A DNA stretch of 64,000 bases from Escherichia phage PJNS034: sequence record PP391266.1, one strand, 5' to 3'. Shown one piece after another: positions 4,926 to 64,000 of this stretch. A program made the position numbers and the translations under genes. The notes under the pieces are model-generated. The model saw nothing but the letters and a program-made list of their open reading frames with translations. It did not search any database and was not told the origin of the DNA. How positions within the stretch are numbered: the stretch's first letter is position 1; every line of letters begins with the position of its first letter.

Positions 4926-4926
4926 A

Positions 4927-5002: not shown

Positions 5003-5004
5003 AT

Positions 5005-5079: not shown

Positions 5080-5095
5080 AACCTCTTTATCCGAT

Positions 5096-5167: not shown

Positions 5168-5174
5168 AATCCCT

Positions 5175-8463: not shown

Positions 8464-8772
8464 ATGAACATGATTTACTCTAACGCACATTACGCAATCT
8501 ACTTCGTACCGAACGGTACTCCTGAGAAAGAACACGACTTTACCAAGCAGTTCACCATCGTGAATATGCACCTCGGTACTGTCGAAGCTCAGGTTGGTTC
8601 TTTCCCACATGCTGTACAGTATTGCGATGTGTTTGCTGCTGATTGGGAAGCACTGGTAATGAATGCAAAAGGCCAGTTCAATCCTGAGATTCAGGGCAAC
8701 GATAATGGTGCTGATAAAGCCGAAGCAAAAGCTGGTCTGAAACTGGCAACTGTGGATGGTGAAAACGTATAA
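8464..8772 (+). CDS. hypothetical protein (102 aa)
   Basis: ORF-track ORF; stop overlaps start of exonuclease gene. Confidence 0.3.
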   Translation: MNMIYSNAHYAIYFVPNGTPEKEHDFTKQFTIVNMHLGTVEAQVGSFPHAVQYCDVFAADWEALVMNAKGQFNPEIQGNDNGADKAEAKAGLKLATVDGENV

Positions 8773-9797
8773 TGAGCAAAATCCCCGTATGTAAGACAAC
8801 ACGACCTACGGTGGATTTAGCACTCATTGACGCAGACGTACTGCGTTACGAATTAGGGGCTGTGCAACTAGACCATCCTTATATCAAGGGTGAGAAGGTT
8901 CCAGCCCCTTCCTCGTTTGTTGAGGGCTTAGTTCAAGACCGTATTGAAACTATTCTGGACAGAACTGGTGCGAAAGACTTCTTATTGTTCCTCACAGGGC
9001 CGGGAAACTTCCGGTTTGATATTGCCAAACAGCAACCATATAAAGGCAACCGAGAAGATTTTGAAAAGCCTTTCCATTGGAAGACTGTTGACCGTTACCT
9101 CCGAACCGTTTATCCCTCCAAAATCCGTGAAGCATTCGGTAACGAGGCAGATGATGAATTGGGCATTACTCAATTACGTTCTGTCCTCGCAGGGGATAAG
9201 GATAACACCTGCATCGCTTCTCGTGACAAAGACCTGAGAACAGTGGAAGGATGGCATTACTCTTGGGCATGTGGTGAAGACCAGCCTGAGAAACCACTAC
9301 GTTACATCACTCAGCTTGAAGGTTATCGCTTCTTCTTCCAACAGATGCTTACTGGTGATAACACTGATAACATCATTGGTTGTGGTAAAAAGAAAGAAGT
9401 GATGTGGGGTGGTAAGCTCATGATGCGGCGTAAAGGCGTGGGCAAGAAAACTGCTGAGAAGTTACTTGCAGAGCTTGAGAACCAACAACAAATGTACGAT
9501 GTTGTTCGTGAACAGTATGTCGAAGTGTTTGAGGATGAAGCTGATACAGTGATGCTCGAACAAGCTCGGTTATTGTTTATTGGACAGACTGAGAAACAAC
9601 AATTTAAATGGCACTGGATTGAGGTGGTTGAATATGGAATTGGCTCCGAAGAAAGCGAAGTTGTGGAAGGAAAAGAACCTGAAGGGACGTTGGATGTTCC
9701 TGAGGAAAATCGACGGAGTGAGAGCACTTCGGAACCTAGACCCAACGATTCCAGCGAAGTATGTGAGCCGGAATGCGAAACCTCTGTACAATCTTGA
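8772..9797 (+). CDS. 5'-3' exonuclease (T7 gp6-like, FEN/RNase H-like)
   Basis: Segments ASRDKDLRTV and GDNTDNIIGCGKK match the CDKDF and GDITDGYSGIAGWG regions of T7 gene 6 exonuclease as recalled; last ~55 codons are low-complexity and overlap the ligase ORF. Confidence 0.7.
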   Translation: MSKIPVCKTTRPTVDLALIDADVLRYELGAVQLDHPYIKGEKVPAPSSFVEGLVQDRIETILDRTGAKDFLLFLTGPGNFRFDIAKQQPYKGNREDFEKPFHWKTVDRYLRTVYPSKIREAFGNEADDELGITQLRSVLAGDKDNTCIASRDKDLRTVEGWHYSWACGEDQPEKPLRYITQLEGYRFFFQQMLTGDNTDNIIGCGKKKEVMWGGKLMMRRKGVGKKTAEKLLAELENQQQMYDVVREQYVEVFEDEADTVMLEQARLLFIGQTEKQQFKWHWIEVVEYGIGSEESEVVEGKEPEGTLDVPEENRRSESTSEPRPNDSSEVCEPECETSVQS

Positions 9798-10332
9798 CCA
9801 CTTGGAGTTTGATGATGCTGAAATCTTTAATCAAAATTGGGAAACTTCCGTTTCAATGGTGCGTACTCATTGTGCGGCTCCTGTTCCTGCTGATTGCGTT
9901 TATCGTCTTGGTGATGGTCAGACCGATTCACGATTATACTTGTTCACGGTGCAAGACCCAACCGAAGAGTTCATTCGGAAGCATCTGGAAGAAGCTCTGG
10001 CGAAAGGTGATGAAGGCTTAATATTAAGGGAGGCCGATGTTGACGACCCGAAATGGCTCAAAGTCAAAAATAAAGAAACTCATGACGTGGTGGTTACGGG
10101 TTATCAGCCGGGCACCGGTAAGCATGAAGGACGGATGGGTGCTCTACTTACGACGAGAGGCAAAGTTGGTACAGGCTTCACAGACAGTGAACGAGACTAC
10201 TGGCAGCAACGCTGGGAAGAGGGTACTGTCGTAGGTGTTACGATTGAGGTGGAATGTATGGAGTTAACTTCCACTGGTAAATTCAGACACCCACGCTTTA
10301 TCCGTGAACGCCTTGATAAAGATGGCGAATAG
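9634..10332 (+). CDS. ATP-dependent DNA ligase (compact, T7 gp1.3-like)
   Basis: Adenylation motif I KIDGVR, EGLIL, WLKVK and C-terminal RHPRF-like motif; start placed at ATG 9634 (GAGG 10 nt upstream) rather than the TTG at 9580 given by the ORF track. Confidence 0.7.
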   Translation: MELAPKKAKLWKEKNLKGRWMFLRKIDGVRALRNLDPTIPAKYVSRNAKPLYNLDHLEFDDAEIFNQNWETSVSMVRTHCAAPVPADCVYRLGDGQTDSRLYLFTVQDPTEEFIRKHLEEALAKGDEGLILREADVDDPKWLKVKNKETHDVVVTGYQPGTGKHEGRMGALLTTRGKVGTGFTDSERDYWQQRWEEGTVVGVTIEVECMELTSTGKFRHPRFIRERLDKDGE

Positions 10333-10345
10333 CAGTATATTAACT

Positions 10346-10371
10346 AAGGTCACTTCGGTGGCCTTTTCTTT
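10346..10371 (+). terminator. Rho-independent terminator after ligase
   Basis: Stem aggtcac/gtggcct with ttcg loop, followed by tttcttt. Confidence 0.55.
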
Positions 10372-10450
10372 CATCTAACTATAGGCAAAACAATGAAACA
10401 GGCTGTATTTGATTTCGCTTCTCGCATGGTCGATAAGCTGACTGCTGATT

Positions 10451-11092
10451 ATGACAAAGCAGAAACCTCTGACGTTGCAGAACGCATCATGTCAGAACTC
10501 AAAAACTACATCAAAATGCGTGATGATGCACAACGTTCTCTGGAGAAAGCTAATGCGTAAGGTTTATATTGCAGGTCATATGTTAACTCGTGGTGCTCAG
10601 ATGCAACGTGCTGAGGAACGTGAGCTGGTATCTTCTTTGGGTCATCAACTCTACAACCCAATGGACAACAAGGAAATTAACGACAAGAAGCTCCACAAGG
10701 ACGATACAGGGCTGGCTGAACGAATCGTTAAGCAAGACACCGACGCTATTTTCTGGGCTGATACAGTGCTGATTGAGCCGCTTGCTGAGGCAAATGGCAC
10801 TCTGGTTGAGTTAGGACAGATTAAAGGTATGAAAGACCTCGCCAAGAAGCTGATGGAGTTACCTGCAACAAATGAGATTGAGTTCGCTGACCAAGCAATT
10901 GAATTGCTCAAACGAATCCTAGACCAGAAGGTTGTTGCTCACTTCGAAGATATCCGACGTGTCGAAGGTATCACCGAAACAGGCGACCGTCGCTCTCTTG
11001 GCATTAACCAGTATGTATATGGTACTGTCCTTGACCTGACAGATGGCAAAGGCTTCACTGAGTTTAAAGACTTGCCGGAGGCTCTTGCTTGA
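10451..11092 (+). CDS. nucleoside 2-deoxyribosyltransferase / Rcl(DNPH1)-like N-glycosidase family protein
   Basis: VYIAGHM near N-terminus and DTDAIFWADTVLIEPLAEANGTLVELGQ match the Rossmann-like core and Glu-containing active-site stretch of this family as recalled; true start probably the internal Met (codon 35). Confidence 0.55.
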   Translation: MTKQKPLTLQNASCQNSKTTSKCVMMHNVLWRKLMRKVYIAGHMLTRGAQMQRAEERELVSSLGHQLYNPMDNKEINDKKLHKDDTGLAERIVKQDTDAIFWADTVLIEPLAEANGTLVELGQIKGMKDLAKKLMELPATNEIEFADQAIELLKRILDQKVVAHFEDIRRVEGITETGDRRSLGINQYVYGTVLDLTDGKGFTEFKDLPEALA

Positions 11093-11751
11093 ACTGGAGA
11101 TTAATATGGTCAGTCTTTGCCGTGCTATCCATTCTGTTTGGGTGCGTTGTTTCAAAAGCAAGTTACGAAGTAATGGCGACGTCCCTAGTGGGCGTCATGT
11201 TCGTGATAGGGGTAGCCTTCAAGAAAGCAAGTGCGAATCTTTTGGGGGCTATACTGTGCGCTATGCTTGGGTTGATGAGCTGGCAAGCTGGATACTACAT
11301 GAACGCGATTATCAACATCTTCTTATTGCTACCACTCCAGTTATTAGCTTACGCCAATTGGACGACAGGGGTGTCGAAGCGAGAGCATCACAGGTACTTG
11401 GTGGAAACGGTCTGTCGCAAACGATTCTTGATTTACACATGTTGGCTAATTCCTCTCTTGGTAGCCGCATACTTCTCAGGCAGCCGTTTGTGGGTACACG
11501 ATGCTGTGACAGCCTCACTTGTGATTGTCGCAACACTTCTCCTCATGTTCAATACCAAAGAGCAATGGCAATTCTGGATTCCATACAATCTGGTAGAAGT
11601 CTTCATGTGGTTCATCGCAGCGAGTACAGCCCCTGAAATGCTTGCAATTATGTTCATGCGTATTGTATTCTTCATTAACAGTCTGATTGGCTATTACGAA
11701 TGGAGGAACGATGGCAATCCACGGACGCTACTTTCGACAGAAACCCGCTGA
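11089..11751 (+). CDS. PnuC-like nicotinamide riboside transporter (putative)
   Basis: 220-aa polytopic membrane protein; C-terminal LIGYYEWRN resembles the PnuC IYGWYEW signature; start overlaps stop of upstream Rcl-like gene. Confidence 0.45.
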   Translation: MNWRLIWSVFAVLSILFGCVVSKASYEVMATSLVGVMFVIGVAFKKASANLLGAILCAMLGLMSWQAGYYMNAIINIFLLLPLQLLAYANWTTGVSKREHHRYLVETVCRKRFLIYTCWLIPLLVAAYFSGSRLWVHDAVTASLVIVATLLLMFNTKEQWQFWIPYNLVEVFMWFIAASTAPEMLAIMFMRIVFFINSLIGYYEWRNDGNPRTLLSTETR

Positions 11752-12172
11752 GTTAAAAGGTACTGACTATGACTCACGTCTTGAGAAAAGGCTGCATGAG
11801 GCGCTTCCCGTCCTCAACCACCATCCAGCGAAAAGGCCGTATGTTCGACACCATACCTACGAGCCAGATTTCGAAGTACAAGGAAACAAGACATATCTTG
11901 TTGAAGCCAAAGGTTACTTCCAAGACCGTAACGAACTTGGCAAGTACCTCCCCATTGCGGAGTCTCTGGGCGATAGTGCTGAGTTGGTATTTGTGTTTGA
12001 GAATGCCGACAAACCAATCCACTTCCAAGCCAAACGTAAGGATGGAAGCAAAATGACACATCGTGAGTGGTGTGTTAAGAATGGATTTCAAGTCTTTGAC
12101 GAGGATGAGTTCCGAGTATGGATTCCAAGTGTTACTACTGTGACGGAATCGGGAGACACAGAGCTTTCGTAA
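11687..12172 (+). CDS. endonuclease I-like Holliday-junction resolvase (T7 gp3-like)
   Basis: HTYEPDFEVQGNKTYLVEAKGYF matches the T7 endonuclease I core HTYTPDFLLPNGIFVETKGLW (PD...E-x-K). Confidence 0.75.
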   Translation: MAITNGGTMAIHGRYFRQKPAELKGTDYDSRLEKRLHEALPVLNHHPAKRPYVRHHTYEPDFEVQGNKTYLVEAKGYFQDRNELGKYLPIAESLGDSAELVFVFENADKPIHFQAKRKDGSKMTHREWCVKNGFQVFDEDEFRVWIPSVTTVTESGDTELS

Positions 12173-52645: not shown

Positions 52646-53455
52646 ATGACGATTCGCCTGATTACTCTTGGTGCTGACCCTGAAACTATTGTTGCTCGCA
52701 ACGGTGTTCCAACTCACGCTATTGGTCTTATCGGCGGTACTAAGGAAGAACCACGTAAGATTATCCGTGGTGGTCGTGAAGTTGGTGCGGTGCAGGAAGA
52801 TAATGTCCTGTATGAGTTCAACATCATGCCACACGATACTCGTCAGGGATTCATTGACAACATTCAGCAGATGTTGGAAGTGGGTCGTGAGATTCTGGGT
52901 GATGGTTACGAAATCACTAATAAGACTTCTCACATCTTCTCTGATGAAGACATGGCTCATTTCCCTGACTCAGCGTTTATCTTCGGTTGTGAACCGGATT
53001 TCTTCGCTGGTAATGGTGAGATGAATCCGAAGCCTGCTGCACCGTGGCCGGGTCTGCGTACCGCAGGTGGTCATGTTCACTTCGGGTTCGATGAGCGTGT
53101 AGTTCGTGATGATGAGAATGTTCGTTCTCTGATTCAACTGTGCGATATGTATATGGCGTTGCCGTCAATGCTTCTGGACACTGACGACCTGCGTAAAGAA
53201 CTGTATGGTAAGGCCGGTGCATTCCGTCCGAAAGCATATGGTGCTGAATATCGTACACTGTCAGGTTTCTGGATTCATAATCCTGAAAATACTGGCTTCG
53301 TGTTTGACCAAGCGCAGAAAGCGTATGATGCGTTGGCAACTGGTCTGGGTCGTGAGATGTTGGCACGTTTCCCATACGAACTGGTTGTCGATATCATCAA
53401 CAGCAATGACCGTGGACGTGCTGAACGTGCCCTGAAAGTTATGCAGGTTGCATAA
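52646..53455 (+). CDS. amidoligase-like protein, divergent (269 aa)
   Basis: GADPETIV and TAGGHVHFGF parallel the GLELELE and STHVHLD segments of the downstream amidoligase-like ORF; preceded by conserved leader. Confidence 0.4.
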   Translation: MTIRLITLGADPETIVARNGVPTHAIGLIGGTKEEPRKIIRGGREVGAVQEDNVLYEFNIMPHDTRQGFIDNIQQMLEVGREILGDGYEITNKTSHIFSDEDMAHFPDSAFIFGCEPDFFAGNGEMNPKPAAPWPGLRTAGGHVHFGFDERVVRDDENVRSLIQLCDMYMALPSMLLDTDDLRKELYGKAGAFRPKAYGAEYRTLSGFWIHNPENTGFVFDQAQKAYDALATGLGREMLARFPYELVVDIINSNDRGRAERALKVMQVA

Positions 53456-53637
53456 TGGAAGAAGGTCTGCTGATTAGCTGGGTTGAATCTCCAGCGAACC
53501 GTAAGACCAAGACTCATACCCTCTTCTTCGAAAGCCTGGACGAGGGTTATGAGTTCATGGCCTCTAAAAGTTGTGTAATTCAAGTACAACGCATTCCACT
53601 GGTGAGAAAGAATGGCGAAACTGGTAACGGTAAATAA
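53455..53637 (+). CDS. hypothetical protein (60 aa)
   Basis: ORF-track ORF, start overlaps previous stop. Confidence 0.25.
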   Translation: MEEGLLISWVESPANRKTKTHTLFFESLDEGYEFMASKSCVIQVQRIPLVRKNGETGNGK

Positions 53638-53803
53638 CGCAGATAAAACTGTAACTCGTCGTGTCTTTATGGACAACGAAGAGGGTATCATGTGGGCAGT
53701 TGACCAAGCCCGCACAGCACTGTCAGTCGTGACTGATGATGTGGAAGTGGTCGAGGCTTCCAGCCGTAAAGGTTGGGAAGGTCATATCGCATGTGATTGC
53801 TAA
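53612..53803 (+). CDS. hypothetical protein (63 aa)
   Basis: ORF-track ORF. Confidence 0.25.
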   Translation: MAKLVTVNNADKTVTRRVFMDNEEGIMWAVDQARTALSVVTDDVEVVEASSRKGWEGHIACDC

Positions 53804-53827
53804 TTTAAACTGAACGAGAGAACTAAA

Positions 53828-54436
53828 ATGTCAATCAATATGTCAAGTGGTGATTTACGTCTGTATTGGGGTGGGTGTTATGCACCTGTTGCATGGGATG
53901 CAGCAGATAGTGGCGTAGCAACACTGGTAATTCACGACGTTCGTGTGATAAATCCAATGTCACGTGACTACACCGAAGCACGAGTTCAAGGTGAACTATT
54001 CTTCATTCGTAATGGAGAAGAGGCTCGTGGTAATTTTGAAGGTCGTATGTCTGACCTCCTCGGTGATGGGTTCACCACTCCTCAACGCAATATCGGTTAT
54101 ATCCGTGTTCACGGTCAACCGTATTGGATTACCTTCAAACGTCGTCGTACAAATCGTAAAGGCATCACCAATGACCGTCTGGCTGTGTATGTAGCTGGGC
54201 ATCGTGGTGAAGCAGGTTTGAACTTCGGTAGTGATGTGTTGTGTCGTCTGTATGCAACCTTTGATGGTCGTATCTCTGATGATTTCTGTATTCATCAGAA
54301 CATGATTCATTATAAAGGTGTGGTTGTCGGACGTTATGAGCGTCACAATCGTATTGTATTAGCTGAACGTTTTGCGTATCTTAGCTGGTCGCTGGAACGT
54401 ATCGGTGGTTACGACGTAACGGTGGAGGTTGAGTAA
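53828..54436 (+). CDS. hypothetical protein (202 aa) inside ligase cluster
   Basis: Preceded by conserved TTAAACTGAACGAG leader; stop overlaps amidoligase start. Confidence 0.4.
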   Translation: MSINMSSGDLRLYWGGCYAPVAWDAADSGVATLVIHDVRVINPMSRDYTEARVQGELFFIRNGEEARGNFEGRMSDLLGDGFTTPQRNIGYIRVHGQPYWITFKRRRTNRKGITNDRLAVYVAGHRGEAGLNFGSDVLCRLYATFDGRISDDFCIHQNMIHYKGVVVGRYERHNRIVLAERFAYLSWSLERIGGYDVTVEVE

Positions 54437-55260
54437 TGATTATTGCTGACATTTTAGGGCATGGTCGTGGGTCGGATGTTGTTGATACGCATCCGTTGAT
54501 TGTTGGTCGAGGCCGTGTAGGACTCGAATTAGAACTGGAGAATATGCCAAATGCTCGACAAGCTGCTGGTTGGACAGTTACTGGTGACGGTTCTCTGCGT
54601 AATAGCGGCGTGGAATATGTACTCCGTGGTGCTCAGGGAGGTATGGAGTTATTTAATTCGATACTTTCTCTGGAAGAAGCACTCATGGCACATCAATGTG
54701 ATGCTAACCTTCGCTGCTCTACTCACGTTCACCTTGATATACGTCGGCTCACTGTGGCTCAACTCAAGCGTTTACTTCTGGCTTATACAGTCTTTGAGCC
54801 ATTAATCTTTGAGTTGTCCGGTGCGCATCGTCGTACTAACAACTTCTGTCCGTCGTTTAGTTTCGCTCAGCAACAAATTCGTAAGCTGAGTAACAACTGG
54901 CATCATGATGGTGAACGATTCCTTGCTCGTATTGTGGAAGGTCGTGACCGCCAATCCAGTGATAAGTATTCAGCACTGAATCTGGTTCCAATCTTCACTC
55001 AGGGTTCTGTAGAGTTCCGTGGTGCAGAAGCGAAGCCAAGTGCAGGTAAGATGATTCGTCTGGCTAACCGTATTCTAAGTCTGTATGACTTAGCGGTTAA
55101 CTCTGATATGAATCAGTCTGATGCTGAGTTCATTAACTCACTGGCGAACCTTGATGTTCAACAGGCATTGATGGGTACGATTCCTCGTGACTTCGAACTC
55201 AGCGAAGAACTGGTGAATGAAGGACGTGTCTTAGCGTTCGATATTATCTCTCTGGGGTGA
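54436..55260 (+). CDS. amidoligase (Amidoligase_2 / carboxylate-amine ligase-like) protein
   Basis: VGLELELE...DGSLRNSGVEYV...STHVHLD resembles the putative amidoligase family (glutamine-synthetase-like fold) as recalled. Confidence 0.5.
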   Translation: MIIADILGHGRGSDVVDTHPLIVGRGRVGLELELENMPNARQAAGWTVTGDGSLRNSGVEYVLRGAQGGMELFNSILSLEEALMAHQCDANLRCSTHVHLDIRRLTVAQLKRLLLAYTVFEPLIFELSGAHRRTNNFCPSFSFAQQQIRKLSNNWHHDGERFLARIVEGRDRQSSDKYSALNLVPIFTQGSVEFRGAEAKPSAGKMIRLANRILSLYDLAVNSDMNQSDAEFINSLANLDVQQALMGTIPRDFELSEELVNEGRVLAFDIISLG

Positions 55261-55261
55261 C

Positions 55262-55477
55262 ATGAGCTGGAACGAACGAGAGTATCGTAAACCAAAGTTG
55301 GGCACTGTATGTGTCCACTTCGAACCTTCGTATAAGTCAACCTTTGGAAGTACGAAGAAGTTCCCTAACGCATCGTTCTACTTGAGTACGAACGGTGTAA
55401 TCATCATCCGTGATATGGATGGTGACAACATCTGTGCATACCCTGAAGGTGTGTGGCTGAATGTTGAAATGAAGTGA
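55262..55477 (+). CDS. hypothetical protein (71 aa)
   Basis: ORF-track ORF; followed by a clean terminator hairpin. Confidence 0.3.
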   Translation: MSWNEREYRKPKLGTVCVHFEPSYKSTFGSTKKFPNASFYLSTNGVIIIRDMDGDNICAYPEGVWLNVEMK

Positions 55478-55485
55478 TTAACTCA

Positions 55486-55508
55486 AGCCCTTCTTCGGGA
55501 GGGTTTTA
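55486..55508 (+). terminator. Rho-independent terminator (cassette copy 3)
   Basis: 8-bp stem agcccttc/ggagggtt with ttcg loop, then tttta; preceded by AACTCAAG. Confidence 0.55.
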
Positions 55509-55563
55509 TGGTAATCATTACCACAAACTATTGAAACTAACTATTGAACTTGAGGAAAGTATT

Positions 55564-57156
55564 ATGTGCGGAATCGTTGGAATTATGCGTGGCGTTATGA
55601 CTGAAGGTATGGTGGACATGTTTGAACAACTGCTGTATGCAGATGTGTTCCGTGGCCCGCACTCCACTGGCGTCTATCGTGTTAATAAAGATGGTCAATC
55701 AGGGTTGTATAAGGATGCAGTACCTGCGTCTTTATATCTTGGCTCGAAAGGCTGGGATGATTTACGTGGGAATCTGAATGGAACTGCTGGTCATCAGGCA
55801 CTGTCTCAAGTTTATGTTGGTCATAACCGTTGGGCAACTGTAGGTGCAGTTAACGCTGTGAACTCACATCCATTCAAGTGCGGTAACATCACGATGGTAC
55901 ACAATGGTACTGTTGCGAAGTGGCGTTTGAATGACCACCTGAAGTATGACGTTGATAGTCATGCGGTGTGTGCGATGTTGGATTCACATGGTCTGGCTGA
56001 AACTCTGAAAGTTCTGGATGGTAAGTTTACTCTGGTGTGGCATGACGCATCTGATAACACCATGAACTTTATCCGTAATGCAGAACGTCCTCTGCACATG
56101 GTTGAGTTCACTGATGGTGGTTGGGCGTTTGCATCAGAAGGTGAGATGTTAACGTGGATTAATGGTCGTCGTAAGACCCCGTTTGGTATTAAACGTGCTT
56201 TCGAACTGCCAGTTGGCTTCCATCATAAATTCCAGTTATCCGCGAGCAAAGTAGAGCTTGCGGAGGTCGTTAAGTACGAACTCCCAAAGTTCACCAGCTA
56301 CGCCAGCAACAGCACGTATTATCCAAACCGAAGCTCAGTCGCAAGCAGCAGCGCAAGCTCAACAAACTCAGAAAGCGCAACCGCTAGACGTGTGCGTCTG
56401 ATGAAAGAGTGGGGCATTGACGTTGGAGACCGCAAAGATGTAGAGAACATGATTGTGTCTCTGGATAACATCGCGTTCACAGCGTACTCAACCAATGCAG
56501 CATCAGGTCGTATTGATGCAGACGCATGGGGTTACGATGAAGCTGTTGATGCCTGTGATGCTGGTCATATGGAAATTGACTGTAAGCGTGGTGGTAAAAC
56601 TGAAGATGTTCAGGTAACAGTTTACGGTGTTGATACTGTTAAGTGGAAAGACAACTACTCTCAGGGCGACCGTCTGTACGGTAAGATTGACAGTGTGTTT
56701 GAATCCACTGAGCATGGCAAGACTCGTCTTCGTATCACTTTGAAACCACTGACTCTGTGTACTGAGTTGGCTGATGGCGTTGAAGCCTTTAATGAGAAAG
56801 TGTTCCCGCTCCTCATTAAGAAAGAGGCCGAAAAGGTTGATGCCGACAAAAGTAAATCAGATGTTGCAGGAAGCACTGGAAGCGCAGGAACTGCAACTGG
56901 TCAGGGAACTCAGTTATCGGTTGTAGTGGATAACACTGCAAAAAAGCCGGAAGGTACGGACTCATCAAGCGGCTCGCCGAACTTGTTCAACATGTCCGCA
57001 ATTCCAATGAGTCTTAAAGACTTGCGTGAAGACAAGCTGAGTTGTGCTTGGTGCGGAAATGCAATCCACGAACATAACTACGAAATGTCTGATATGTTCT
57101 TTAAATCTCACATCTGCCCAGATTGTGCCAAGGAGTTACCGGGTTATGGCGACTGA
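55564..57156 (+). CDS. class II (Ntn-type) glutamine amidotransferase-like protein with C-terminal zinc ribbon
   Basis: Begins MCGIVGI (Cys directly after Met, hallmark of N-terminal nucleophile amidotransferases); Ser-rich linker; C-terminal CAWCG...CPDC; start moved to internal ATG with GAGG upstream. Confidence 0.7.
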   Translation: MCGIVGIMRGVMTEGMVDMFEQLLYADVFRGPHSTGVYRVNKDGQSGLYKDAVPASLYLGSKGWDDLRGNLNGTAGHQALSQVYVGHNRWATVGAVNAVNSHPFKCGNITMVHNGTVAKWRLNDHLKYDVDSHAVCAMLDSHGLAETLKVLDGKFTLVWHDASDNTMNFIRNAERPLHMVEFTDGGWAFASEGEMLTWINGRRKTPFGIKRAFELPVGFHHKFQLSASKVELAEVVKYELPKFTSYASNSTYYPNRSSVASSSASSTNSESATARRVRLMKEWGIDVGDRKDVENMIVSLDNIAFTAYSTNAASGRIDADAWGYDEAVDACDAGHMEIDCKRGGKTEDVQVTVYGVDTVKWKDNYSQGDRLYGKIDSVFESTEHGKTRLRITLKPLTLCTELADGVEAFNEKVFPLLIKKEAEKVDADKSKSDVAGSTGSAGTATGQGTQLSVVVDNTAKKPEGTDSSSGSPNLFNMSAIPMSLKDLREDKLSCAWCGNAIHEHNYEMSDMFFKSHICPDCAKELPGYGD

Positions 57157-57439
57157 TAAAATTGTAATTCGTATGCCGAAAGACGACATTGAATGTGAGC
57201 GGAAATATCCGTTCACTTACTTCATGAATGCAGCGCTGCGTGGTATGCAGCGTCGCTACTCTGAACAAGCGTCGGCAAAGTTTGGTAGTGAAGTTGAGAT
57301 TCTATTCCCAACTGCATTATCAAAAATGATTCATGACCACATGGTCACTCTGTATCAACAGGAAGGATTCGAACTCGCTGAAGAAGATTTCGAAGACTCC
57401 GAACAATACCGCAAATATCTGAAACTAATTAAGGGCTAA
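57146..57439 (+). CDS. hypothetical protein (97 aa)
   Basis: ATG overlapping the amidotransferase stop; ORF-track frame. Confidence 0.35.
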   Translation: MATDKIVIRMPKDDIECERKYPFTYFMNAALRGMQRRYSEQASAKFGSEVEILFPTALSKMIHDHMVTLYQQEGFELAEEDFEDSEQYRKYLKLIKG

Positions 57440-57444
57440 AACAA

Positions 57445-58938
57445 ATGCTGCGTATCTTCAACTACAACAACGGTTCTCAAGGTCTGGGTGCTCTGCGTGA
57501 ACATGTAGAGCCATTGATTCGTGAGATGAATACTCATCGTGGTTTCCGTAACATTCGTCCGGTTATGGGTAGCGAGAATGGTTCTGCTCGTCTGTTTCAG
57601 GCGACTAACCGCTTCATTATGAACTGGGGTTCTTCGCAACCCCTGAACACTGATGAAAGCAACTTCGTTCTCAACAAACCGGAAGCTGTTGGTTTAGCAA
57701 CTCATAAACTCCGCTTCTTCCAACATGTTCACCAGTGGAACCAAGAGAAGATTGCTCAGGGTGTGAATGGCCTGACTGTTCCGATTCCTGAGTGGACAAC
57801 TTCTCGTGATGAAGCTCAGACTTGGGCAGGGCATGACCATCTGGTTTATGCCCGTCAACGTCTGCAAGGTCATAGCGGTGAAGGTATCGAAGTATACGGT
57901 ATCAATCAGGTTGTTGAACGTGCTCCACTGTACACCAAAGGCATCATCGGTGCTCGTCGTGAGTATCGTGTTCATGTCATTGCTGGTCAGGTGGCACTGG
58001 TTCAGTTGAAGAAACGCCGCAATGGTGGTGAGGCTGTGGGCAATGGTAATGACCATGTTCGTAACCTCGGCTCTGGTTGGGTGTATGCAGTAAGTGATGC
58101 TCGTCCATCACCAGTCGTATTGAGTGCAGCACAGAATGCAGTTCGTGCTCTGGGTCTGGACTTTGGTGCGGTAGACATTATCGCTAAAGGTCGTAAAGGT
58201 CAGGAGCGTGAGTGCTGGGTGTTGGAAGTTAACACTGCACCGGGTCAGCGTGGTGATACTACTGTGACGCTGTATGCTCGTGCTGTTGCATCGGCATATG
58301 CAATCTGGATGAATCGTGATAGCGTTGACGTCCGTGATTTAGGAGGTGTCAAAGCTGCATGGGAAACACTTCCTTGGCTGAACGATGAAACCTTCCTTGC
58401 TCTGATGCGTGATGAAGGTGCAGATGGTTCGGTACTTCTGCGTTCTCAGCGTGAAACTCAGGCAGCAGAGGCAGAAATGCCTAACACTGACGATGATGTG
58501 GCGGCAGATGAAAACTTTGCCCTTCCTGCTGATGAACTGACACCTGCTCGTGCAACCTCTGGTGCTCATGTAGTTCACACTGGTACTCGTTGGGTTGATG
58601 TAGAAGCAGCACCTCAAGTTCGTGCTGAGCCTGTACGTCGTCGTGACGGTGAGCCAATGCCGTTCAATGGTAATCCATTCGATGCACGTATTCGTCGTGA
58701 ACCTGCACCACGTCCTGCACCTGAACCGGTTGTAATGCCAGAACGTCGTGTCATGTTGTCTCGTCTGGGACAGAATGACCCACAGAACGAACAGTTCGTG
58801 GTATTCACATGGAACGGTCGTCGTGAAGTCGGTGTAGTCAATACTCGTCTGGGTGTTGTTTACATGGCTGGTAGCGAAGTTCAACTTCCACTGGCTCAGG
58901 TTGATTTGATTGCGGTAGTTGATACCGAAATTCGTTAA
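57445..58938 (+). CDS. ATP-grasp ligase (RimK-like) with ~200-aa C-terminal extension
   Basis: YRVHVIAG and GLDFGAVDII...VLEVNTAPG match the RimK/GshB-type ATP-grasp C-terminal motifs as recalled; C-terminal half Pro/Arg-rich, unassigned. Confidence 0.7.
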   Translation: MLRIFNYNNGSQGLGALREHVEPLIREMNTHRGFRNIRPVMGSENGSARLFQATNRFIMNWGSSQPLNTDESNFVLNKPEAVGLATHKLRFFQHVHQWNQEKIAQGVNGLTVPIPEWTTSRDEAQTWAGHDHLVYARQRLQGHSGEGIEVYGINQVVERAPLYTKGIIGARREYRVHVIAGQVALVQLKKRRNGGEAVGNGNDHVRNLGSGWVYAVSDARPSPVVLSAAQNAVRALGLDFGAVDIIAKGRKGQERECWVLEVNTAPGQRGDTTVTLYARAVASAYAIWMNRDSVDVRDLGGVKAAWETLPWLNDETFLALMRDEGADGSVLLRSQRETQAAEAEMPNTDDDVAADENFALPADELTPARATSGAHVVHTGTRWVDVEAAPQVRAEPVRRRDGEPMPFNGNPFDARIRREPAPRPAPEPVVMPERRVMLSRLGQNDPQNEQFVVFTWNGRREVGVVNTRLGVVYMAGSEVQLPLAQVDLIAVVDTEIR

Positions 58939-58967
58939 TTGCTTTAGGGTATTCTTCGGAGTACCCT

Positions 58968-59189
58968 ATGTCGATTGAACCGAACGAGGAATATATGAAA
59001 GTATGGGTAGTTATGTTCCAAGAGTATGACCTAGCCGAAGTGCTGGAAATCTACTCGAAGGAAGAAGATGCTATAGCACATCGTCAGGCTGAAATTGATA
59101 AGAGCTTGTCATACGCTAAGAAGTGGAATGTCAAACCACACCCTGCGCTCGAACAGTTTTATACAATTCACGAAAAAGAGGTAAAGTAA
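58968..59189 (+). CDS. hypothetical protein (73 aa)
   Basis: ATG lies at the 3' edge of a hairpin whose loop carries GGAG. Confidence 0.3.
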   Translation: MSIEPNEEYMKVWVVMFQEYDLAEVLEIYSKEEDAIAHRQAEIDKSLSYAKKWNVKPHPALEQFYTIHEKEVK

Positions 59190-59596
59190 TGAGCAATTTA
59201 GTCGCTGTATATGGTTCCCTTCTGTCTGGTCTGCATAACCACGGTGTTATGGAACGTGCAAAGGGTAAGTTGATTGGTGCTGGTGAATCGGTGCAGAACA
59301 TCAACATGTATTCTCTGGGTGGTTTCCCTTCCATCTCTCTGGAACACTCCAGCCACGGTAATACAATTCGTGTTGAAGTATATGAAGTACCGGATGAAGG
59401 TATGCGTCCTCTGAATGCACTGGAAGGTTATCGTGGTGAAGATGGCCCGAACTTCTACAACCGCACTCCAATCAAAATTAAGATGGACAACGGTGATATG
59501 CTGGAAGCGTTCATCTATCACATCGACGAAACTCAATCCCATCCGGTTATTGATGGTGACTGGCGTAAATATCTGGAACAGCGAGGTCGTGCATAG
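59189..59596 (+). CDS. gamma-glutamyl cyclotransferase-like (AIG2/GGCT fold) protein
   Basis: N-terminal VAVYGSLL matches the YGS(L/N) signature; conserved Glu in LEGYRGE; start moved to internal ATG with AGAGG upstream. Confidence 0.6.
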   Translation: MSNLVAVYGSLLSGLHNHGVMERAKGKLIGAGESVQNINMYSLGGFPSISLEHSSHGNTIRVEVYEVPDEGMRPLNALEGYRGEDGPNFYNRTPIKIKMDNGDMLEAFIYHIDETQSHPVIDGDWRKYLEQRGRA

Positions 59597-61022: not shown

Positions 61023-62765
61023 TTGTCCCAAGAGTATCAAGGTGGTAAACGATTAACGCACGACGGCCCATGTCCAACATGTCGTTCTCATGGACGTGAC
61101 AGAACTGGCAACCACTTACAGTTCTGGGAGAATGATAAAGGCGAGCATTGGGCTTTCTGTAACCGATGCGGTCACTACGAAGACGATGGAAACAAACTCG
61201 GCTCGTATGAAAAGAAAGAACGTCGTGAGTTAAGCGATGAAGAAGTAGCGGAGGTGTTGTCAGAGATTGCCGAACTTCCGTATCAAGCGTTGGGTAGTCG
61301 TGGTATCACATTAGCAGTTGCCGAACGTTATGGTGTTCGTGTTGGATTAAGTCCACAGGACGGACAAACTCAAGTCTCTCACTTCTATCCGAAGATGAAG
61401 GGCAAGGATATCACTGGTTACAAAGTACGTCAGTTGAATCCGAAGTTCTTTTATCATCAAGGTCGTGGTGGTGGATGTGACTTGTTTGGTATGCAGCAAG
61501 CGTTGTTGAAGGATGTGTTTAAACATTCGTTGTATATCTTCGAAGATGAGTTGTCGGCAATGTCTGGTTTTCAGGTATTGAAACAATTCGCAAAAGAGGG
61601 TTACAAGAACTACTCACCAGCGGTTGTTTCATTGCCAGATGGAACGAAATCAGCAGCACGAGTGTGTGGTCAGAACCGTGAGTTCATCCAGAGTTTCAAA
61701 GAAGTTGTTGTCTGTATGGATAACGACAAAGCTGGTGATGATGCGGTTGAAGTGATTCGTTCACTTTATCCTGACAAAGTAAAAGTGGTACGACTTCCGC
61801 TGAAAGATGCGAACGATATGCTTATGGCAGGTCGTGAAATGGAGTTGTATCAGCACTTACGATTCAATGCCAAGACTGAGACGCCAGACGGTGCAGTATC
61901 CATTATGGATTGCATTGAAGATGCGTTGAAGAAACCGGAATGGGGTTTATCATTCCCGTGGCAGGGTCTTACGAACTTAACTTATGGCATTCAGTACGGT
62001 GAGATTATCGCTGTTGGTGGTGGTGTAGGTTTGGGTAAGACCTTGATTGGTCATGAGTTGTGTGCTCACTTGATTAATGTCGAGAAACAACGAATCGGCA
62101 TGTTCATGCTGGAGGAAACTGTTGGCAATACCATCAAGAACATTTCTGGTAAGGTTGCTAATATTCCTTTCCATCGCCCAGATGTTGAGTATGACCCTCA
62201 AACCCTTCGTGACGTAGCAATGTCGTTTGGCGACAATGTAGCGTTGTGGCAGAACAAAGGTCAGAACTCATGGGAGAACATTAAGGCATGTATGCGGTTC
62301 TGGGCTGTAGTTGAGGGTCGTAAGATTATGATTCTCGATAACATCACAGCGTTAACTGCTCACTTAACTCCAAGTGAAATCAACACGGAAATCAGTAAGA
62401 TTGCATCTGAACTTGCTGGCCTGTGTGACGAGTTAGGTATTGCATGTTTTGTATTCTCTCACTTAAATCCACCGTCAGGTGGTAAGCCACACGAAGAAGG
62501 TGGTGAAGTTAAAGAGGTTCAGTTCACTGGTTCACGAGCGTTGATGCGTTGGTGTCAGGTGATTCTTGGCTTCGAACGTAACAAATATGCAGAAGGGGAT
62601 GCAAAGAACATCTCACGCATTAAGTTACTGAAAGACCGTAAGTATGGTCAGTCTGGTTATATTCATACACGGTTCTATCCTGAAACTGGTCGTTTACTCG
62701 AAGTGACTGAACAAGAAGCTGGCGAGTACGAACAGACAGAGGAAGATAAAGACCGTTCATTCTAA
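61023..62765 (+). CDS. primase-helicase (T7 gp4-like)
   Basis: N-terminal zinc-binding CPTC...CNRC, central primase-like region, helicase Walker A GGGVGLGKT and Walker B-like MILDNIT; start read as TTG. Confidence 0.85.
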   Translation: MSQEYQGGKRLTHDGPCPTCRSHGRDRTGNHLQFWENDKGEHWAFCNRCGHYEDDGNKLGSYEKKERRELSDEEVAEVLSEIAELPYQALGSRGITLAVAERYGVRVGLSPQDGQTQVSHFYPKMKGKDITGYKVRQLNPKFFYHQGRGGGCDLFGMQQALLKDVFKHSLYIFEDELSAMSGFQVLKQFAKEGYKNYSPAVVSLPDGTKSAARVCGQNREFIQSFKEVVVCMDNDKAGDDAVEVIRSLYPDKVKVVRLPLKDANDMLMAGREMELYQHLRFNAKTETPDGAVSIMDCIEDALKKPEWGLSFPWQGLTNLTYGIQYGEIIAVGGGVGLGKTLIGHELCAHLINVEKQRIGMFMLEETVGNTIKNISGKVANIPFHRPDVEYDPQTLRDVAMSFGDNVALWQNKGQNSWENIKACMRFWAVVEGRKIMILDNITALTAHLTPSEINTEISKIASELAGLCDELGIACFVFSHLNPPSGGKPHEEGGEVKEVQFTGSRALMRWCQVILGFERNKYAEGDAKNISRIKLLKDRKYGQSGYIHTRFYPETGRLLEVTEQEAGEYEQTEEDKDRSF

Positions 62766-62777: not shown

Positions 62778-63080
62778 ATGTCCAATGGTATTACATTAGA
62801 AGTTCATGACTGGCACAAAGATGGTACTCGTCGTCCATTCTTCGGAAATAATGATAAGGGTTACTTCTGGCTTCACCTGTATTATGCTTCTGGTGTGCAA
62901 GCATCTTTGGGTGGCTCGATTGAACACTACTTCATGAAAGAAGATGAAACTACCAAAGCAACCTCGAAGATGAATGTTGCTATCCGTGGTAATGATGGTA
63001 AGTTTATCTCTTACCGTAAACTTCAGAACACTGACCATGAACATGTGTTTGAGGGGATTGATGCACTACCAAACATTTGA
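62778..63080 (+). CDS. hypothetical protein (100 aa)
   Basis: ORF-track ORF between primase-helicase and exonuclease-domain gene. Confidence 0.3.
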   Translation: MSNGITLEVHDWHKDGTRRPFFGNNDKGYFWLHLYYASGVQASLGGSIEHYFMKEDETTKATSKMNVAIRGNDGKFISYRKLQNTDHEHVFEGIDALPNI

Positions 63081-63609
63081 TGCGTTCGATATTGAGACGG
63101 ATAACTTATATCATGGAGTTACCCGTCTTTGGTGCAGCAGTCACATCGACGTTGATAGCGGTTGTGTTACTGAGTATCGTCCTGAATGTTATCAAAGCGT
63201 TGGTGAGCACTTATTACGGTGTAAACGAGACAACGTTGTTGTGGTCGGTCATAACATCGTAGACTTCGACTTACCAGCGATTGAGAAAGTGTTGGGTGTG
63301 GATTTGGATGGTATTGCATTCATTGATACACTCGTCATTTCTCGTGCTCTGGAACCTGACCTCGAAGGAGGTCATTCCTTGAAGATGTGGGGTAAACGTC
63401 TTGGTATCTTAAAAGGTACTTATGGGGAAGATGAAGGGGAAGCAGCATGGGACAAGTTCTCAGAAGACATGATGGAATACTGTACACAGGACGTTAAGGT
63501 CACTGTTGCACTGGTTAAACATCTGCTTGAGGATTTAGCAGGTATCCCACGGAACGAATGGTACAAGGTTGTACAAGTTTATAATTCACCACTTAAAGGT
63601 AAACGTTAA
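63061..63609 (+). CDS. DNA polymerase 3'-5' proofreading exonuclease domain, separately encoded
   Basis: Exo I-like FDIETD and Exo II-like VVGHNIVDFD; ends in a stop overlapping the dUTPase start; start taken at internal ATG with GAGG upstream. Confidence 0.75.
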   Translation: MHYQTFDAFDIETDNLYHGVTRLWCSSHIDVDSGCVTEYRPECYQSVGEHLLRCKRDNVVVVGHNIVDFDLPAIEKVLGVDLDGIAFIDTLVISRALEPDLEGGHSLKMWGKRLGILKGTYGEDEGEAAWDKFSEDMMEYCTQDVKVTVALVKHLLEDLAGIPRNEWYKVVQVYNSPLKGKR

Positions 63610-64000
63610 TGTCTGCAAAAATTAAAGTTGAAGTAATCGGTAATGCACCTGTAGCAATGTCTCCGGGTGCGAATGGCATGGACGTTAAGGCAGCGAAGAC
63701 TGTCGTAATCCCGGCAGGTGGTATTGCTCTGGTTCCAACTGGAACTCGTATTCAAATCATTGACGAGGATGTGAATGACCCAACTAACGACGTTACAATC
63801 GCTACGCTGTCTCTTCCACGTTCCTCGCTTGCCAAGTCTGGTCTTATGCTGGCTAACAGTGTTGGCCTTATCGACACCGACTATCAAGGCGATATCGGAT
63901 TCATGTTCTTCAACCGAACTAGTGAAGATATTACAGTCGAGAAAGACACTCGGTTAGGTCAGCTTCTGTTTACTCTTGCAGTCAAGCCAAGTATGTTTGA
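63609..64000 (+). CDS. dut: dUTPase (partial, runs off window end)
   Basis: Read by eye: motif III-like GLIDTDYQGD and motif IV-like RLGQLLF; no stop before window end. Confidence 0.7.
   Translation, partial: MSAKIKVEVIGNAPVAMSPGANGMDVKAAKTVVIPAGGIALVPTGTRIQIIDEDVNDPTNDVTIATLSLPRSSLAKSGLMLANSVGLIDTDYQGDIGFMFFNRTSEDITVEKDTRLGQLLFTLAVKPSMF

What the first reader, a model, noticed from the sequence alone, without database searches (positions are those of the whole stretch)
63061..63609. Family A DNA polymerase split into separate exonuclease-domain and polymerase-domain genes
The 3'-5' exonuclease motifs (FDIETD, HNIVDFD) are in a 182-aa ORF at 63061..63609, while polymerase motifs A, B and C are in a 561-aa ORF at 761..2446 with no exonuclease motifs. 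Each part is bounded by stop codons, and at least the dUTPase gene and three small ORFs lie between them whichever way the window is joined. The two parts together approximate one T7 gp5-sized enzyme, so the phage apparently makes its replicase from two polypeptides.
Basis: partly seen in the sequence, partly recalled or inferred. Interest (0 to 1): 0.6.

Follow-up and report, generated by a model that had tools for sequence, protein, structure and literature searches.

The report
Known two-gene phage DNA polymerase
This phage encodes its T7-type DNA polymerase as two separate genes, a small proofreading exonuclease and a larger polymerase.

Summary
ORF 63061..63609 (182 aa) is a complete 3'-5' exonuclease domain with Exo I, II and III motifs. 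ORF 761..2446 (561 aa) is a family A polymerase domain with motifs A, B and C and no exonuclease part.

The two ORFs match adjoining parts of one phage PolA profile. The break falls at T7 gp5 residue ~200-207, in the linker between the two domains. The window holds no other PolA.

The window is a circularly permuted copy of a ~65.7 kb phage genome, with ~1.7 kb missing at the junction. On a contiguous relative contig, exo and pol lie 2.6 kb apart with nine small genes between them.

Both genes have their own ribosome-binding site, start and stop. Both are under purifying selection (dN/dS ~0.1). I found no intron or intein signature.

The order primase/helicase, exo, variable cassette, pol recurs in Pantoea phage TacPo2, LUZ24-like phages, Salmonella phage 7-11, Cronobacter phage A24 and phiEco32-like phages. 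There the genes are annotated "DNA polymerase part I/II" or "exonuclease subunit". Papers from 2012 and 2023 state the split explicitly.

Verdict: a real feature, correctly interpreted, and an unannotated member of a known kind. Physical association of the two products is inferred, not shown.

The parts
63061..63609 (+). Gene for the stand-alone 3'-5' proofreading exonuclease (182 aa), equivalent to the N-terminal domain of T7 gp5. Sometimes annotated 'DNA polymerase part I' or 'exonuclease subunit'.
   Evidence: ORF. Pfam PF01612 and PHROG 17 positions 674-828. Aligns to T7 gp5 4-193. GAGG Shine-Dalgarno 8 nt upstream, and dN/dS 0.12 against TacPo2.
63088..63096 (+). Exo I motif, D10-I-E12
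   Evidence: Aligned to T7 gp5 D5/E7. D10 and E12 are at least 90% conserved in the 131-sequence alignment A1.
63253..63270 (+). Exo II motif, N65-IVDF-D70
63478..63492 (+). Exo III motif, Y140-CTQ-D144
761..2446 (+). Gene for the polymerase subunit (561 aa, TTG start), covering the thumb, palm and fingers of a T7-like PolA. Sometimes annotated 'DNA polymerase part II'.
   Evidence: ORF. Pfam PF00476 124.7 bits and PHROG 17 positions 836-1233. T7 gp5 is the best solved relative. AAGGAAG Shine-Dalgarno, and dN/dS 0.10.
1805..1828 (+). Polymerase motif A, DGAGLELR
   Evidence: Aligned to the T7 gp5 motif A region.
1925..1966 (+). Polymerase motif B, RDNAKTFIYAFLYG. It has the T7-type Tyr at the FIY position.
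2291..2299 (+). Polymerase motif C, HDE
63609..64000 (+). dUTPase gene (5' part, cut by the window end). It is the first gene of the cassette between exo and pol. Its ATG overlaps the exo stop as TAATG.
   Evidence: Full-length homologues are TacPo2_25 (Pfam dUTPase) and L009 6549-7028.
1..267 (+). Small cassette ORF. The mechanical ORF is 55..267, but the L009 homologue is 94 aa and starts about 18 nt before window position 1.
314..511 (+). Small cassette ORF (65 aa, PHROG 9565, function unknown). It is absent from L009 at this spot.
508..759 (+). Small coiled-coil ORF (83 aa) ending 1 nt before the pol start. Conserved in TacPo2 and L009.
61023..62765 (+). T7 gp4-type primase/helicase, conserved immediately upstream of the exo gene. 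It ends in an acidic tail with a terminal Phe (EEDKDRSF).
   Evidence: The same order is seen.
62778..63080 (+). Small ORF (100 aa) between the primase/helicase and exo genes, overlapping the exo start by 20 nt
   Evidence: 45% aa identity to the TacPo2 counterpart
8772..9797 (+). Separately encoded 5'-3' exonuclease (FEN-like). This is the third classical Pol I activity, also on its own gene.
   Evidence: The Pfam hits to 5_3_exonuc_N and 5_3_exonuc are weak and below cut-off. An annotated exonuclease sits at the syntenic position in A24 and 7-11. Literature.

Best explanation
The phage replicase is a T7 gp5-type family A DNA polymerase whose gene underwent fission at the linker between the exonuclease and polymerase domains in an ancestor of the LUZ24-like, phiEco32-like, 7-11-like and TacPo2-like phages.

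Shown:
- Two independent genes exist, exo at 63061..63609 and pol at 761..2446.
- Each is translated from its own start.
- Each keeps a full catalytic motif set.
- About 2.6 kb of unrelated small genes (dUTPase, MazG-like, thioredoxin-like and others) separates them across the junction of the window ends.

Inferred:
- The 20-kDa exonuclease and the 63-kDa polymerase reassemble without a covalent link into a gp5-like heterodimer.
- The primer end shuttles between the polymerase and exonuclease sites for proofreading.
- The complex works with the gp4-like primase/helicase encoded just upstream.
For: 1. The pieces are complementary. Both match one PHROG 17 profile at adjoining positions. In a MAFFT alignment the last exo residues fall at gp5 ~200-206 and pol Met1 at ~207.
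2. All Exo I/II/III and A/B/C motifs are intact.
3. dN/dS against TacPo2 is 0.12 for exo and 0.10 for pol.
4. Each gene has its own Shine-Dalgarno sequence and start. No Rfam intron is found in the window or in the complete interval of L009. No intein domain is found, and there are no extra residues at the junction.
5. Both genes are retained, in the same order after the primase/helicase, in every relative examined, despite complete turnover of the cassette:
   - TacPo2: 2.4 kb, 7 genes
   - L009: 2.6 kb, 9 genes
   - phiIBB-PAA2: 1.9 kb, 7 genes
   - A24: 7.7 kb, 14 genes
   - 7-11: 6.7 kb, 18 genes
   - ECBP2: about 9 kb
6. All 11 exo homologues from the word-index protein search (search for homologous proteins, a sensitivity-limited search) are stand-alone proteins of 166-254 aa.
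7. The pol subunit falls in a clade of 13 tips that all lack an exo domain, with NJ bootstrap 78/100, nested among fused PolAs.
8. AlphaFold2 on the head-to-tail concatenation gives pLDDT 94 and pTM 0.90. Only residues ~171-190, the junction, are of low confidence. T7 gp5 is the best full-length structural match, TM 0.65-0.79.
9. Literature: separate exo and pol genes are reported in all LUZ24-group phages and in phiEco32 (PMC3517423) and in all Kuravirus-like phages and relatives (PMC9965538). An AlphaFold2 complex of the independently split S-SBP1 exo and pol products superposes on an intact PolA (PMC10201439).
Against: - I found no experiment, here or in the papers searched, showing that the two polypeptides bind each other.
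- My AlphaFold2 run used an artificial fusion and an alignment dominated by fused homologues. It therefore leans towards the gp5 arrangement. I could not inspect interface contacts.
- The exo subunit is less conserved than pol (85.7% against 94% aa identity to TacPo2).
- A terminator-like hairpin lies between the genes at window 272-295. They may not be co-transcribed or made in equal amounts.
- About 1.7 kb of the interval is not in the window. I inferred its content from a 94-97% identical contig.
Confidence: 0.8

Rival explanations
1. The exonuclease gene now codes for an independent nuclease, for example in recombination, repair, host DNA breakdown or anti-defence. It does not bind the polymerase, and the polymerase subunit replicates without intrinsic proofreading.
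For: - The genes are separated by 2-9 kb of unrelated genes.
- A terminator-like hairpin lies between them.
- Exo evolves somewhat faster than pol.
- Several other PolA lineages without an exo domain exist in metagenomes.
- PolA-related stand-alone DEDD nucleases exist: the query matched the PDB entry 'ancestor of diDNase' at E 1.4e-5.
Against: - Both genes are strictly retained, in the same relative order next to the primase/helicase, across very divergent phages.
- The cut lies exactly at the linker, with nothing lost on either side.
- The closest solved relative of the exo protein is the gp5 exonuclease domain itself.
- According to PMC10201439, PolAs structurally need the exo domain for stability.
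- The concatenated AlphaFold2 model is confident.
Confidence: 0.14
2. The two ORFs are exons or exteins of one gene and are joined after transcription or translation, by an intron, a split intein or ribosomal bypass, to give one full-length polymerase. One paper on LUZ24-like phages called them 'two exons' (PMC3890496).
For: - The UFV-P2 paper uses the word 'exons'.
- An intron was reported in the LUZ24 pol gene (PMC3517423).
- Homing-type endonucleases occur near pol: PD-(D/E)XK at 2443..2862, and an HNH endonuclease splitting the ECBP2 pol gene.
Against: - The interval is 2.6 kb of tightly packed, independently conserved protein genes, including dUTPase, MazG-like and thioredoxin-like genes.
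- No group I or II intron model matches in the window or in the complete interval of L009.
- No Hint or intein domain is found. The exo ORF ends and the pol ORF begins at adjoining gp5 positions, leaving no room for the roughly 100 + 35 aa of a split intein.
- Both ORFs have a Shine-Dalgarno sequence and a start codon.
Confidence: 0.03
3. Assembly or sequencing artefact, or a decaying pseudogene. On this view the polymerase is really one gene, and the apparent split comes from an error or from where the window was cut.
For: The two parts sit at opposite ends of the window, and the junction itself is not in the window.
Against: - Independent genomes and contigs show the same arrangement: TacPo2, a Logan contig, phiIBB-PAA2, A24, 7-11 and ECBP2.
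- L009 is contiguous across the junction.
- dN/dS is ~0.1 for both parts.
Confidence: 0.01

Closest known systems
Split PolA of LUZ24-like (Bruynoghevirus), phiEco32-like (Gordonclarkvirinae) and 7-11/A24-like (Grimontviridae) phages, annotated 'DNA polymerase part I / part II' or 'DNA polymerase exonuclease subunit'
   Same: - Homologous proteins: exo 42-50% and pol ~48-50% aa identity.
- The same break point.
- The same gene order: primase/helicase, exo, variable cassette, pol.
- The same NJ clade.
- A separately encoded 5'-3' exonuclease.
- The split is stated in print in PMC3517423 (2012) and PMC9965538 (2023).
   Different: - A different phage lineage, TacPo2-like, with a ~65 kb genome and a probable Pantoea host. 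The only deposited relative is annotated entirely as 'hypothetical protein'.
- The cassette content differs and varies even between 94-97% identical genomes.
- Here pol is not further interrupted, unlike ECBP2, where an HNH endonuclease splits it.
S-SBP1-like T7-like cyanophages with exo/pol gene fission (Czernecki et al. 2023, PMC10201439)
   Same: [quoted passage not shown]
- Motif B carries the T7-type Tyr.
- The thumb/TBD region is shorter than in T7.
- The association of the two products is inferred from AlphaFold2.
   Different: - In S-SBP1 the two genes are adjacent and overlapping, created by a recent +1 frameshift.
- Here they are 2.6 kb apart with about nine genes between them, and the split is old.
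- My rough tree suggests several independent origins of exo-less PolAs.
T7 gp5 (with host thioredoxin and the gp4 primase-helicase)
   Same: - It is the best sequence and structure match for both parts.
- All catalytic motifs are shared.
- A gp4-type primase/helicase with an acidic, Phe-terminated C-terminal tail is encoded upstream (the comparison of the tail with gp4 is from memory).
   Different: - T7 gp5 is a single 704-aa chain.
- The T7 thioredoxin-binding loop aligns only in part.
- The pol subunit carries an extra insertion of about 90 aa after gp5 ~377.
Multi-subunit replicases with a separate proofreading subunit: E. coli Pol III alpha/epsilon and archaeal PolD DP2/DP1
   Same: Functional analogy: polymerase and 3'-5' exonuclease on different polypeptides that act as one enzyme. 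This is general knowledge, and Czernecki et al. draw the same analogy.
   Different: The polymerase families are unrelated (C and D). Those subunits did not arise by fission of a PolA.
Other split phage polymerases: MEP401-type OM43 phages (PMC10580990), and a split DNA polymerase reported in an uncultured marine cyanophage lineage and a Synechococcus WH8016 genomic island (bioRxiv 10.1101/325100; the passages I read do not say where it is split)
   Same: A phage DNA polymerase encoded by two ORFs.
   Different: - In MEP401 the break lies inside the polymerase domain. ORF13 holds exo plus the N-terminal pol part, and a single small ORF lies between, which suggests an intron or homing element.
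- For the cyanophage case the break point is not stated in what I read, so it cannot be compared.
- Here the break is at the domain boundary, with a multi-gene cassette between the parts.

Membership tests
Family A DNA polymerase, T7-like cluster | Pfam DNA_pol_A (PF00476) above the gathering score | tested here: met
   124.7 bits against a cut-off of 34.3 for ORF 761..2446
Family A DNA polymerase, T7-like cluster | Catalytic motifs A (D..LE.R), B (R...K...[FY]...YG, Tyr in T7-like enzymes) and C (HDE) | tested here: met
   DGAGLELR at 349, RDNAKTFIYAFLYG at 389, HDE at 511. Aligned to T7 gp5 470-702.
Family A DNA polymerase, T7-like cluster | Overall fold of exo domain plus thumb, palm and fingers, as in T7 gp5 | tested here: met
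   AlphaFold2 on the concatenated ORFs gives pLDDT 94 and pTM 0.90. The top Foldseek PDB hits are all T7 gp5, E ~1e-38, TM 0.65-0.79. Caveat: the construct is an artificial fusion and the alignment is rich in fused homologues.
Family A DNA polymerase, T7-like cluster | Thioredoxin-binding domain used for processivity (T7 proper) | tested here: inconclusive
   Only the C-terminal part of the T7 loop aligns, gp5 ~316-369 to pol 94-144. The region is shorter than in T7. Binding is not testable here.
DEDDy 3'-5' exonuclease domain of PolA (PF01612) | Pfam hit above the gathering score, and Exo I (DxE), Exo II (Nx2-3[FY]D) and Exo III (Yx3D) motifs | tested here: met
   35 bits against a cut-off of 23.6. 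D10/E12, N65/D70 and Y140/D144. These positions are at least 90% conserved in alignment A1.
Split exo/pol PolA of LUZ24-, phiEco32- and 7-11-like phages | Exo and pol are separate ORFs, each with its own start and stop, cut at the inter-domain linker | tested here: met
Split exo/pol PolA of LUZ24-, phiEco32- and 7-11-like phages | Gene order primase/helicase, exo, multi-gene cassette, pol | tested here: met
   Window 61023..62765, then 63061..63609, then cassette, then 761..2446. The order is contiguous in L009. The same order is seen.
Split exo/pol PolA of LUZ24-, phiEco32- and 7-11-like phages | The pol subunit groups phylogenetically with the pol subunits of those phages | tested here: met
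   NJ clade of 13 tips without exo domains, including PAA2, A24, 7-11 and TacPo2, with bootstrap 78/100. This is a rough distance tree.
Split exo/pol PolA of LUZ24-, phiEco32- and 7-11-like phages | The two polypeptides form one functional enzyme | not testable with these tools
   Only indirect support is available. I found no biochemical report in the searches.
Intron- or intein-interrupted polymerase gene | A group I/II intron RNA, or Hint/intein blocks, at the junction | tested here: not met
   Rfam finds only tRNAs in the window and nothing credible in the complete interval of L009. Pfam shows no intein domain. No surplus residues flank the break.
S-SBP1-type recent gene fission (adjacent, overlapping exo and pol) | The exo stop and the pol start lie within a few tens of bases of each other | tested here: not met
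   The genes are ~2.6 kb apart with about nine genes between them. Compare.

The most novel reading that the evidence does not exclude
The cassette that separates exo from pol is not random filler. In TacPo2, in the 94-97% identical contig L009, and in 7-11, A24 and phiEco32-like phages, it carries a small phage-encoded thioredoxin. In L009 this is 78 aa with a classical CGPC site.

That protein could be the phage's own processivity factor, playing the role host thioredoxin plays for T7 gp5. The replicase would then be a three-polypeptide enzyme encoded entirely by the phage: exo, pol and thioredoxin.

In this phage the gene would lie in the ~1.7 kb that the window lacks.
Probability: 0.12. 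Interest if true: 0.5.

Novelty: new member of a known kind. Interest (0 to 1): 0.15.

Why it matters
It matters little beyond annotation.
- The two genes here, and their counterparts TacPo2_24 and TacPo2_32 (now 'hypothetical protein'), can be named as the PolA exonuclease and polymerase subunits.
- The case adds a further lineage to a clade that has kept a naturally split family A polymerase for a long time, with an ever-changing block of genes between the halves.
- The open general question is whether such split PolAs truly reassemble, and whether separate genes allow separate control of proofreading. That question is known and is not specific to this window.

Tried and rejected
- **Second, intact PolA in the window.** T7 gp5 by tblastn and an exonuclease HMM on all six frames found only the two ORFs. 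Pfam on the other large early ORFs showed GATase, amidoligase, SPFH, GGACT and similar families, and no polymerase.
- **Intron.** Rfam at gathering threshold on the window gave tRNAs only. Rfam at E<=1 on the complete exo-pol interval of L009 gave one chance-level sRNA hit.
- **Intein.** There is no Pfam intein domain and no extra residues at the break.
- **Near-identical deposited phage.** Megablast found only TacPo2, at 84%. No paper mentions TacPo2.
- **ECBP2 'nucleotidyltransferase' next to exo (482 aa).** I suspected it was the pol part. It has no Pfam hit, and the real pol lies 9 kb away.
- **Biochemical studies of exo-pol association in these phages.** Six literature searches found genomic statements only.
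- **Testing the thioredoxin idea with the second AlphaFold2 job.** I considered it and dropped it. The tool folds single chains only and returns no coordinates or inter-chain error, so an interface could not be judged.
- **Promoter scan of the interval.** It found fewer sigma-70-like sites than in shuffled sequence, so it is uninformative.
Full report
**Observation**

ORF 63061..63609 (182 aa):
- It passes Pfam's 3'-5' exonuclease model PF01612, at 35 bits against a cut-off of 23.6.
- It carries Exo I (D10-I-E12 within FDIETD), Exo II (N65...D70 within HNIVDFD) and Exo III (Y140-CTQ-D144).
- Its best solved relative is the N-terminal domain of T7 gp5, residues 4-193.

ORF 761..2446 (561 aa, TTG start):
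- It passes Pfam DNA_pol_A, at 124.7 bits against a cut-off of 34.3.
- It has motif A (DGAGLELR), motif B (RDNAKTFIYAFLYG) and motif C (HDE).
- It aligns to T7 gp5 from about residue 293/322 to 702.
- It gives no signal with an exonuclease HMM that I built from 18 exo sequences (E 0.17, negative score).

The clearest single result is that both ORFs match the same PHROG 17 "DNA polymerase" profile at adjoining positions, 674-828 and 836-1233. The window holds no other PolA-like or exo-like sequence in any frame.

**Where the cut is**

I aligned exo+pol concatenations from four phages with T7 gp5. The exo proteins end at gp5 ~200-206. The pol proteins begin at gp5 ~207, with a conserved W-x2-[SP]-[LF]-x2-E-x2-[IV]-A motif. 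Nothing is lost, and nothing is added that could be an intein.

AlphaFold2 on the head-to-tail concatenation used a 131-sequence alignment. It gives mean pLDDT 94 and pTM 0.90. The only weak stretch is residues ~171-190, which is the junction. Foldseek returns T7 gp5 as the top match in all its crystal forms (E ~1e-38, TM 0.65-0.79), followed by Klenow and Bst. The break is therefore at the flexible linker between the domains.

Caveat: the model is an artificial fusion, and most alignment rows are fused homologues. It shows compatibility with the gp5 architecture. It does not prove that the two chains associate.

**Geometry of the window**

The window is a nearly complete, circularly permuted phage genome.
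- The + strand carries early and replication genes and ten tRNAs.
- The - strand carries portal, terminase, scaffold and tail genes.

The nearest deposited phage is Pantoea phage TacPo2 (65,025 bp, 84% nt identity over the region). All its genes are annotated "hypothetical protein".

A Logan metagenome contig, L009, is 94-97% identical to the window. It runs without a break from the primase/helicase through exo (6001-6552) and nine small genes into pol (from 9174). Window position 64000 corresponds to about L009 6937, and window position 1 to L009 8608. About 1.67 kb is therefore missing from the window.

Exo and pol are thus about 2.6 kb apart across the junction. The cassette is larger than the "dUTPase plus three small ORFs" visible in the window.

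In L009 and TacPo2 the cassette holds dUTPase, a MazG-like protein, a 78-aa thioredoxin-like protein with a CGPC site, and several small unknown proteins. The cassette varies even among close relatives. Window ORF 314..511 has no counterpart at that position in L009.

**Real genes, not debris, exons or exteins**

- Exo has a GAGG 8 nt before its ATG. It overlaps the upstream ORF by 20 nt, and its stop overlaps the dUTPase start as TAATG.
- Pol has AAGGAAG before its TTG and starts 1 nt after the upstream ORF's stop.
- Against TacPo2, dN/dS is 0.12 for exo, 0.10 for pol and 0.05 for the primase/helicase. The poorly conserved small ORF upstream of exo gives 0.42.
- Rfam finds no intron family in the window or in the whole exo-pol interval of L009.
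- Pfam finds no intein domain.

The "two exons" wording in one LUZ24-like genome paper (PMC3890496) is not supported for this locus.

**Relatives**

The order primase/helicase, exo, cassette, pol is conserved while the cassette turns over completely.

| Phage or contig | Distance exo to pol | Genes between |
|---|---|---|
| TacPo2 | 2.4 kb | 7 |
| L009 | 2.6 kb | 9 |
| phiIBB-PAA2 (LUZ24-like), annotated "DNA polymerase part I" and "part II" | 1.9 kb | 7 |
| Cronobacter phage A24 | 7.7 kb | 14 |
| Salmonella phage 7-11, annotated "DNA polymerase exonuclease subunit" and "DNA polymerase I" | 6.7 kb | 18 |
| Escherichia phage ECBP2 | ~9 kb | ~21 |

In ECBP2 the pol gene is additionally interrupted by an HNH endonuclease.

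tblastn places the window's exo at 42-50% identity to these stand-alone exo genes, and its pol at ~48-50% identity to their pol genes. PHROGs holds several "DNA polymerase exonuclease subunit" families. All 11 exo homologues found in the word-index protein search (search for homologous proteins, which is sensitivity-limited) are stand-alone proteins of 166-254 aa.

**How widespread, and how often**

I ran an exhaustive HMMER search of 1.84 billion cluster representatives with the concatenated query. It gave 11,201 hits. Among the best 150:
- 114 have an N-terminal exo domain, so they are fused;
- 36 do not;
- 21 of those 36 are full-length proteins, and nearly all begin within a few residues of the same boundary motif.

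I then built a rough NJ tree of the pol domain with 141 tips and 562 columns. It places the window in a 13-tip clade with TacPo2, PAA2, A24, 7-11 and eight metagenomic clusters. None of these tips has an exo domain. Bootstrap support is 78/100.

Other exo-less PolAs fall in at least seven further places on the tree. Fitch parsimony needs at least 8 state changes and puts a fused state at the root. I infer one old fission for this clade and probably independent fissions elsewhere. The tree is too crude to count them.

**Literature**

- Glukhov et al. 2012 (PMC3517423) state that polymerase and proofreading 3'-exonuclease are separate genes in all LUZ24-group phages. They note that the same was reported for phiEco32 in 2008.
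- PMC9965538 (2023) says the separation of the polymerase from its 3'-5' and 5'-3' exonucleases is common to all Kuravirus-like phages and to 7-11, Privateer, Vp_R1 and BUCT695.
- Czernecki et al. 2023 (PMC10201439) describe an independent, recent fission in S-SBP1-like cyanophages. Those genes are adjacent and arose by a +1 frameshift. An AlphaFold2 complex of the two products superposes on an intact PolA. The authors compare the arrangement to PolD DP1/DP2.
- I found no biochemical test of association for any of these enzymes.

**Mechanism**

Shown: there are two genes, two translation units, intact active sites on both, and purifying selection on both.

Inferred:
- The 20-kDa exonuclease docks on the 63-kDa polymerase as the exo domain does in T7 gp5.
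- The heterodimer proofreads by shuttling the primer end between the two sites.
- The heterodimer works with the gp4-type primase/helicase encoded just upstream. That protein's acidic, Phe-terminated tail (EEDKDRSF) resembles the gp4 tail that binds gp5. This comparison is from memory.

I put about 0.97 on "two separate polypeptides" and about 0.8 on the full heterodimer model. The main rival is an exonuclease that has become functionally independent, at about 0.14. Splicing and artefact explanations are close to excluded.

**Verdict**

However, it is a shared trait of a large phage clade that is already annotated and published. What is new is only that this TacPo2-like lineage, currently annotated as hypothetical proteins, belongs to that clade. 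Interest is low.

Noticed in passing
window 2443..2862 (+): A 139-aa PD-(D/E)XK endonuclease (Pfam PF11645) starts inside the pol stop region. TacPo2 lacks it at this exact spot, a 420-bp presence/absence difference. A 37%-identical homologue sits directly after pol part II in the LUZ24-like phage phiIBB-PAA2. It looks like a free-standing, possibly mobile, endonuclease associated with the pol gene.
   Followed up: partly
L009 7324-7560; TacPo2_27 (L001 11386-11622); probably in the ~1.7 kb missing between window 64000 and 1: A 78-aa thioredoxin-like protein with a CGPC motif lies in the exo-pol cassette. Pfam Thioredoxin scores 23.0-23.5 bits, at the cut-off. Thioredoxin genes also lie between exo and pol in 7-11 and A24. 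T7 gp5 uses host thioredoxin for processivity, so this may be relevant.
   Followed up: partly
window 272..295 (+): A terminator-like hairpin, AAGGCTGGCTGAAAAGCTGGCCTT followed by a T-rich tail, lies between the cassette ORFs. It is conserved in L009 and TacPo2. It could separate exo and pol into different transcription units.
   Followed up: no
window 314..511 (+): A 65-aa ORF (PHROG 9565, function unknown) is an insertion of about 190 bp relative to the 94-97% identical contig L009. The exo-pol cassette is a hot spot for gain and loss of small genes.
   Followed up: partly
window 52646..59596 (+): A cluster of phiEco32-type COOH-NH2 ligase, amidoligase, glutamine amidotransferase and gamma-glutamyl cyclotransferase genes. 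It matches the peptide-modification gene set known from phiEco32- and LUZ24-like phages.
   Followed up: no
window 4423..5251 (+): An array of ten tRNA genes (Pro, Tyr, Lys, Ser x2, Ile, Asn, Met, Trp, Gln). TacPo2 has eleven, with a partly different set: it has Glu and Phe and lacks Pro.
   Followed up: no
window 61023..62765 (+), C-terminus: The primase/helicase ends in an acidic tail with a terminal phenylalanine (...EQTEEDKDRSF). This resembles the T7 gp4 tail that contacts the polymerase. The comparison is from memory.
   Followed up: no
window 8772..12172 (+): The order 5'-3' exonuclease (weak Pfam), DNA ligase OB domain, nucleoside 2-deoxyribosyltransferase, PnuC-like NMN transporter and T7-type endonuclease I matches the gene order of Cronobacter phage A24. 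ORFs 8772..9797 and 9580..10332 overlap by about 220 nt, so the ligase start needs checking.
   Followed up: no
L008 7255-9706 (Escherichia phage ECBP2): In ECBP2 the pol subunit gene is itself interrupted. An HNH endonuclease gene separates a 570-aa 'DNA polymerase' from a 51-aa C-terminal 'DNA polymerase' fragment, so the enzyme is in three pieces there.
   Followed up: no
window 761..2446, pol residues ~145-235: The pol subunits of this clade carry an insertion of about 90 aa, mostly helical and of high pLDDT, after the position of T7 gp5 ~377. T7 lacks it, and its role is unknown.
   Followed up: no
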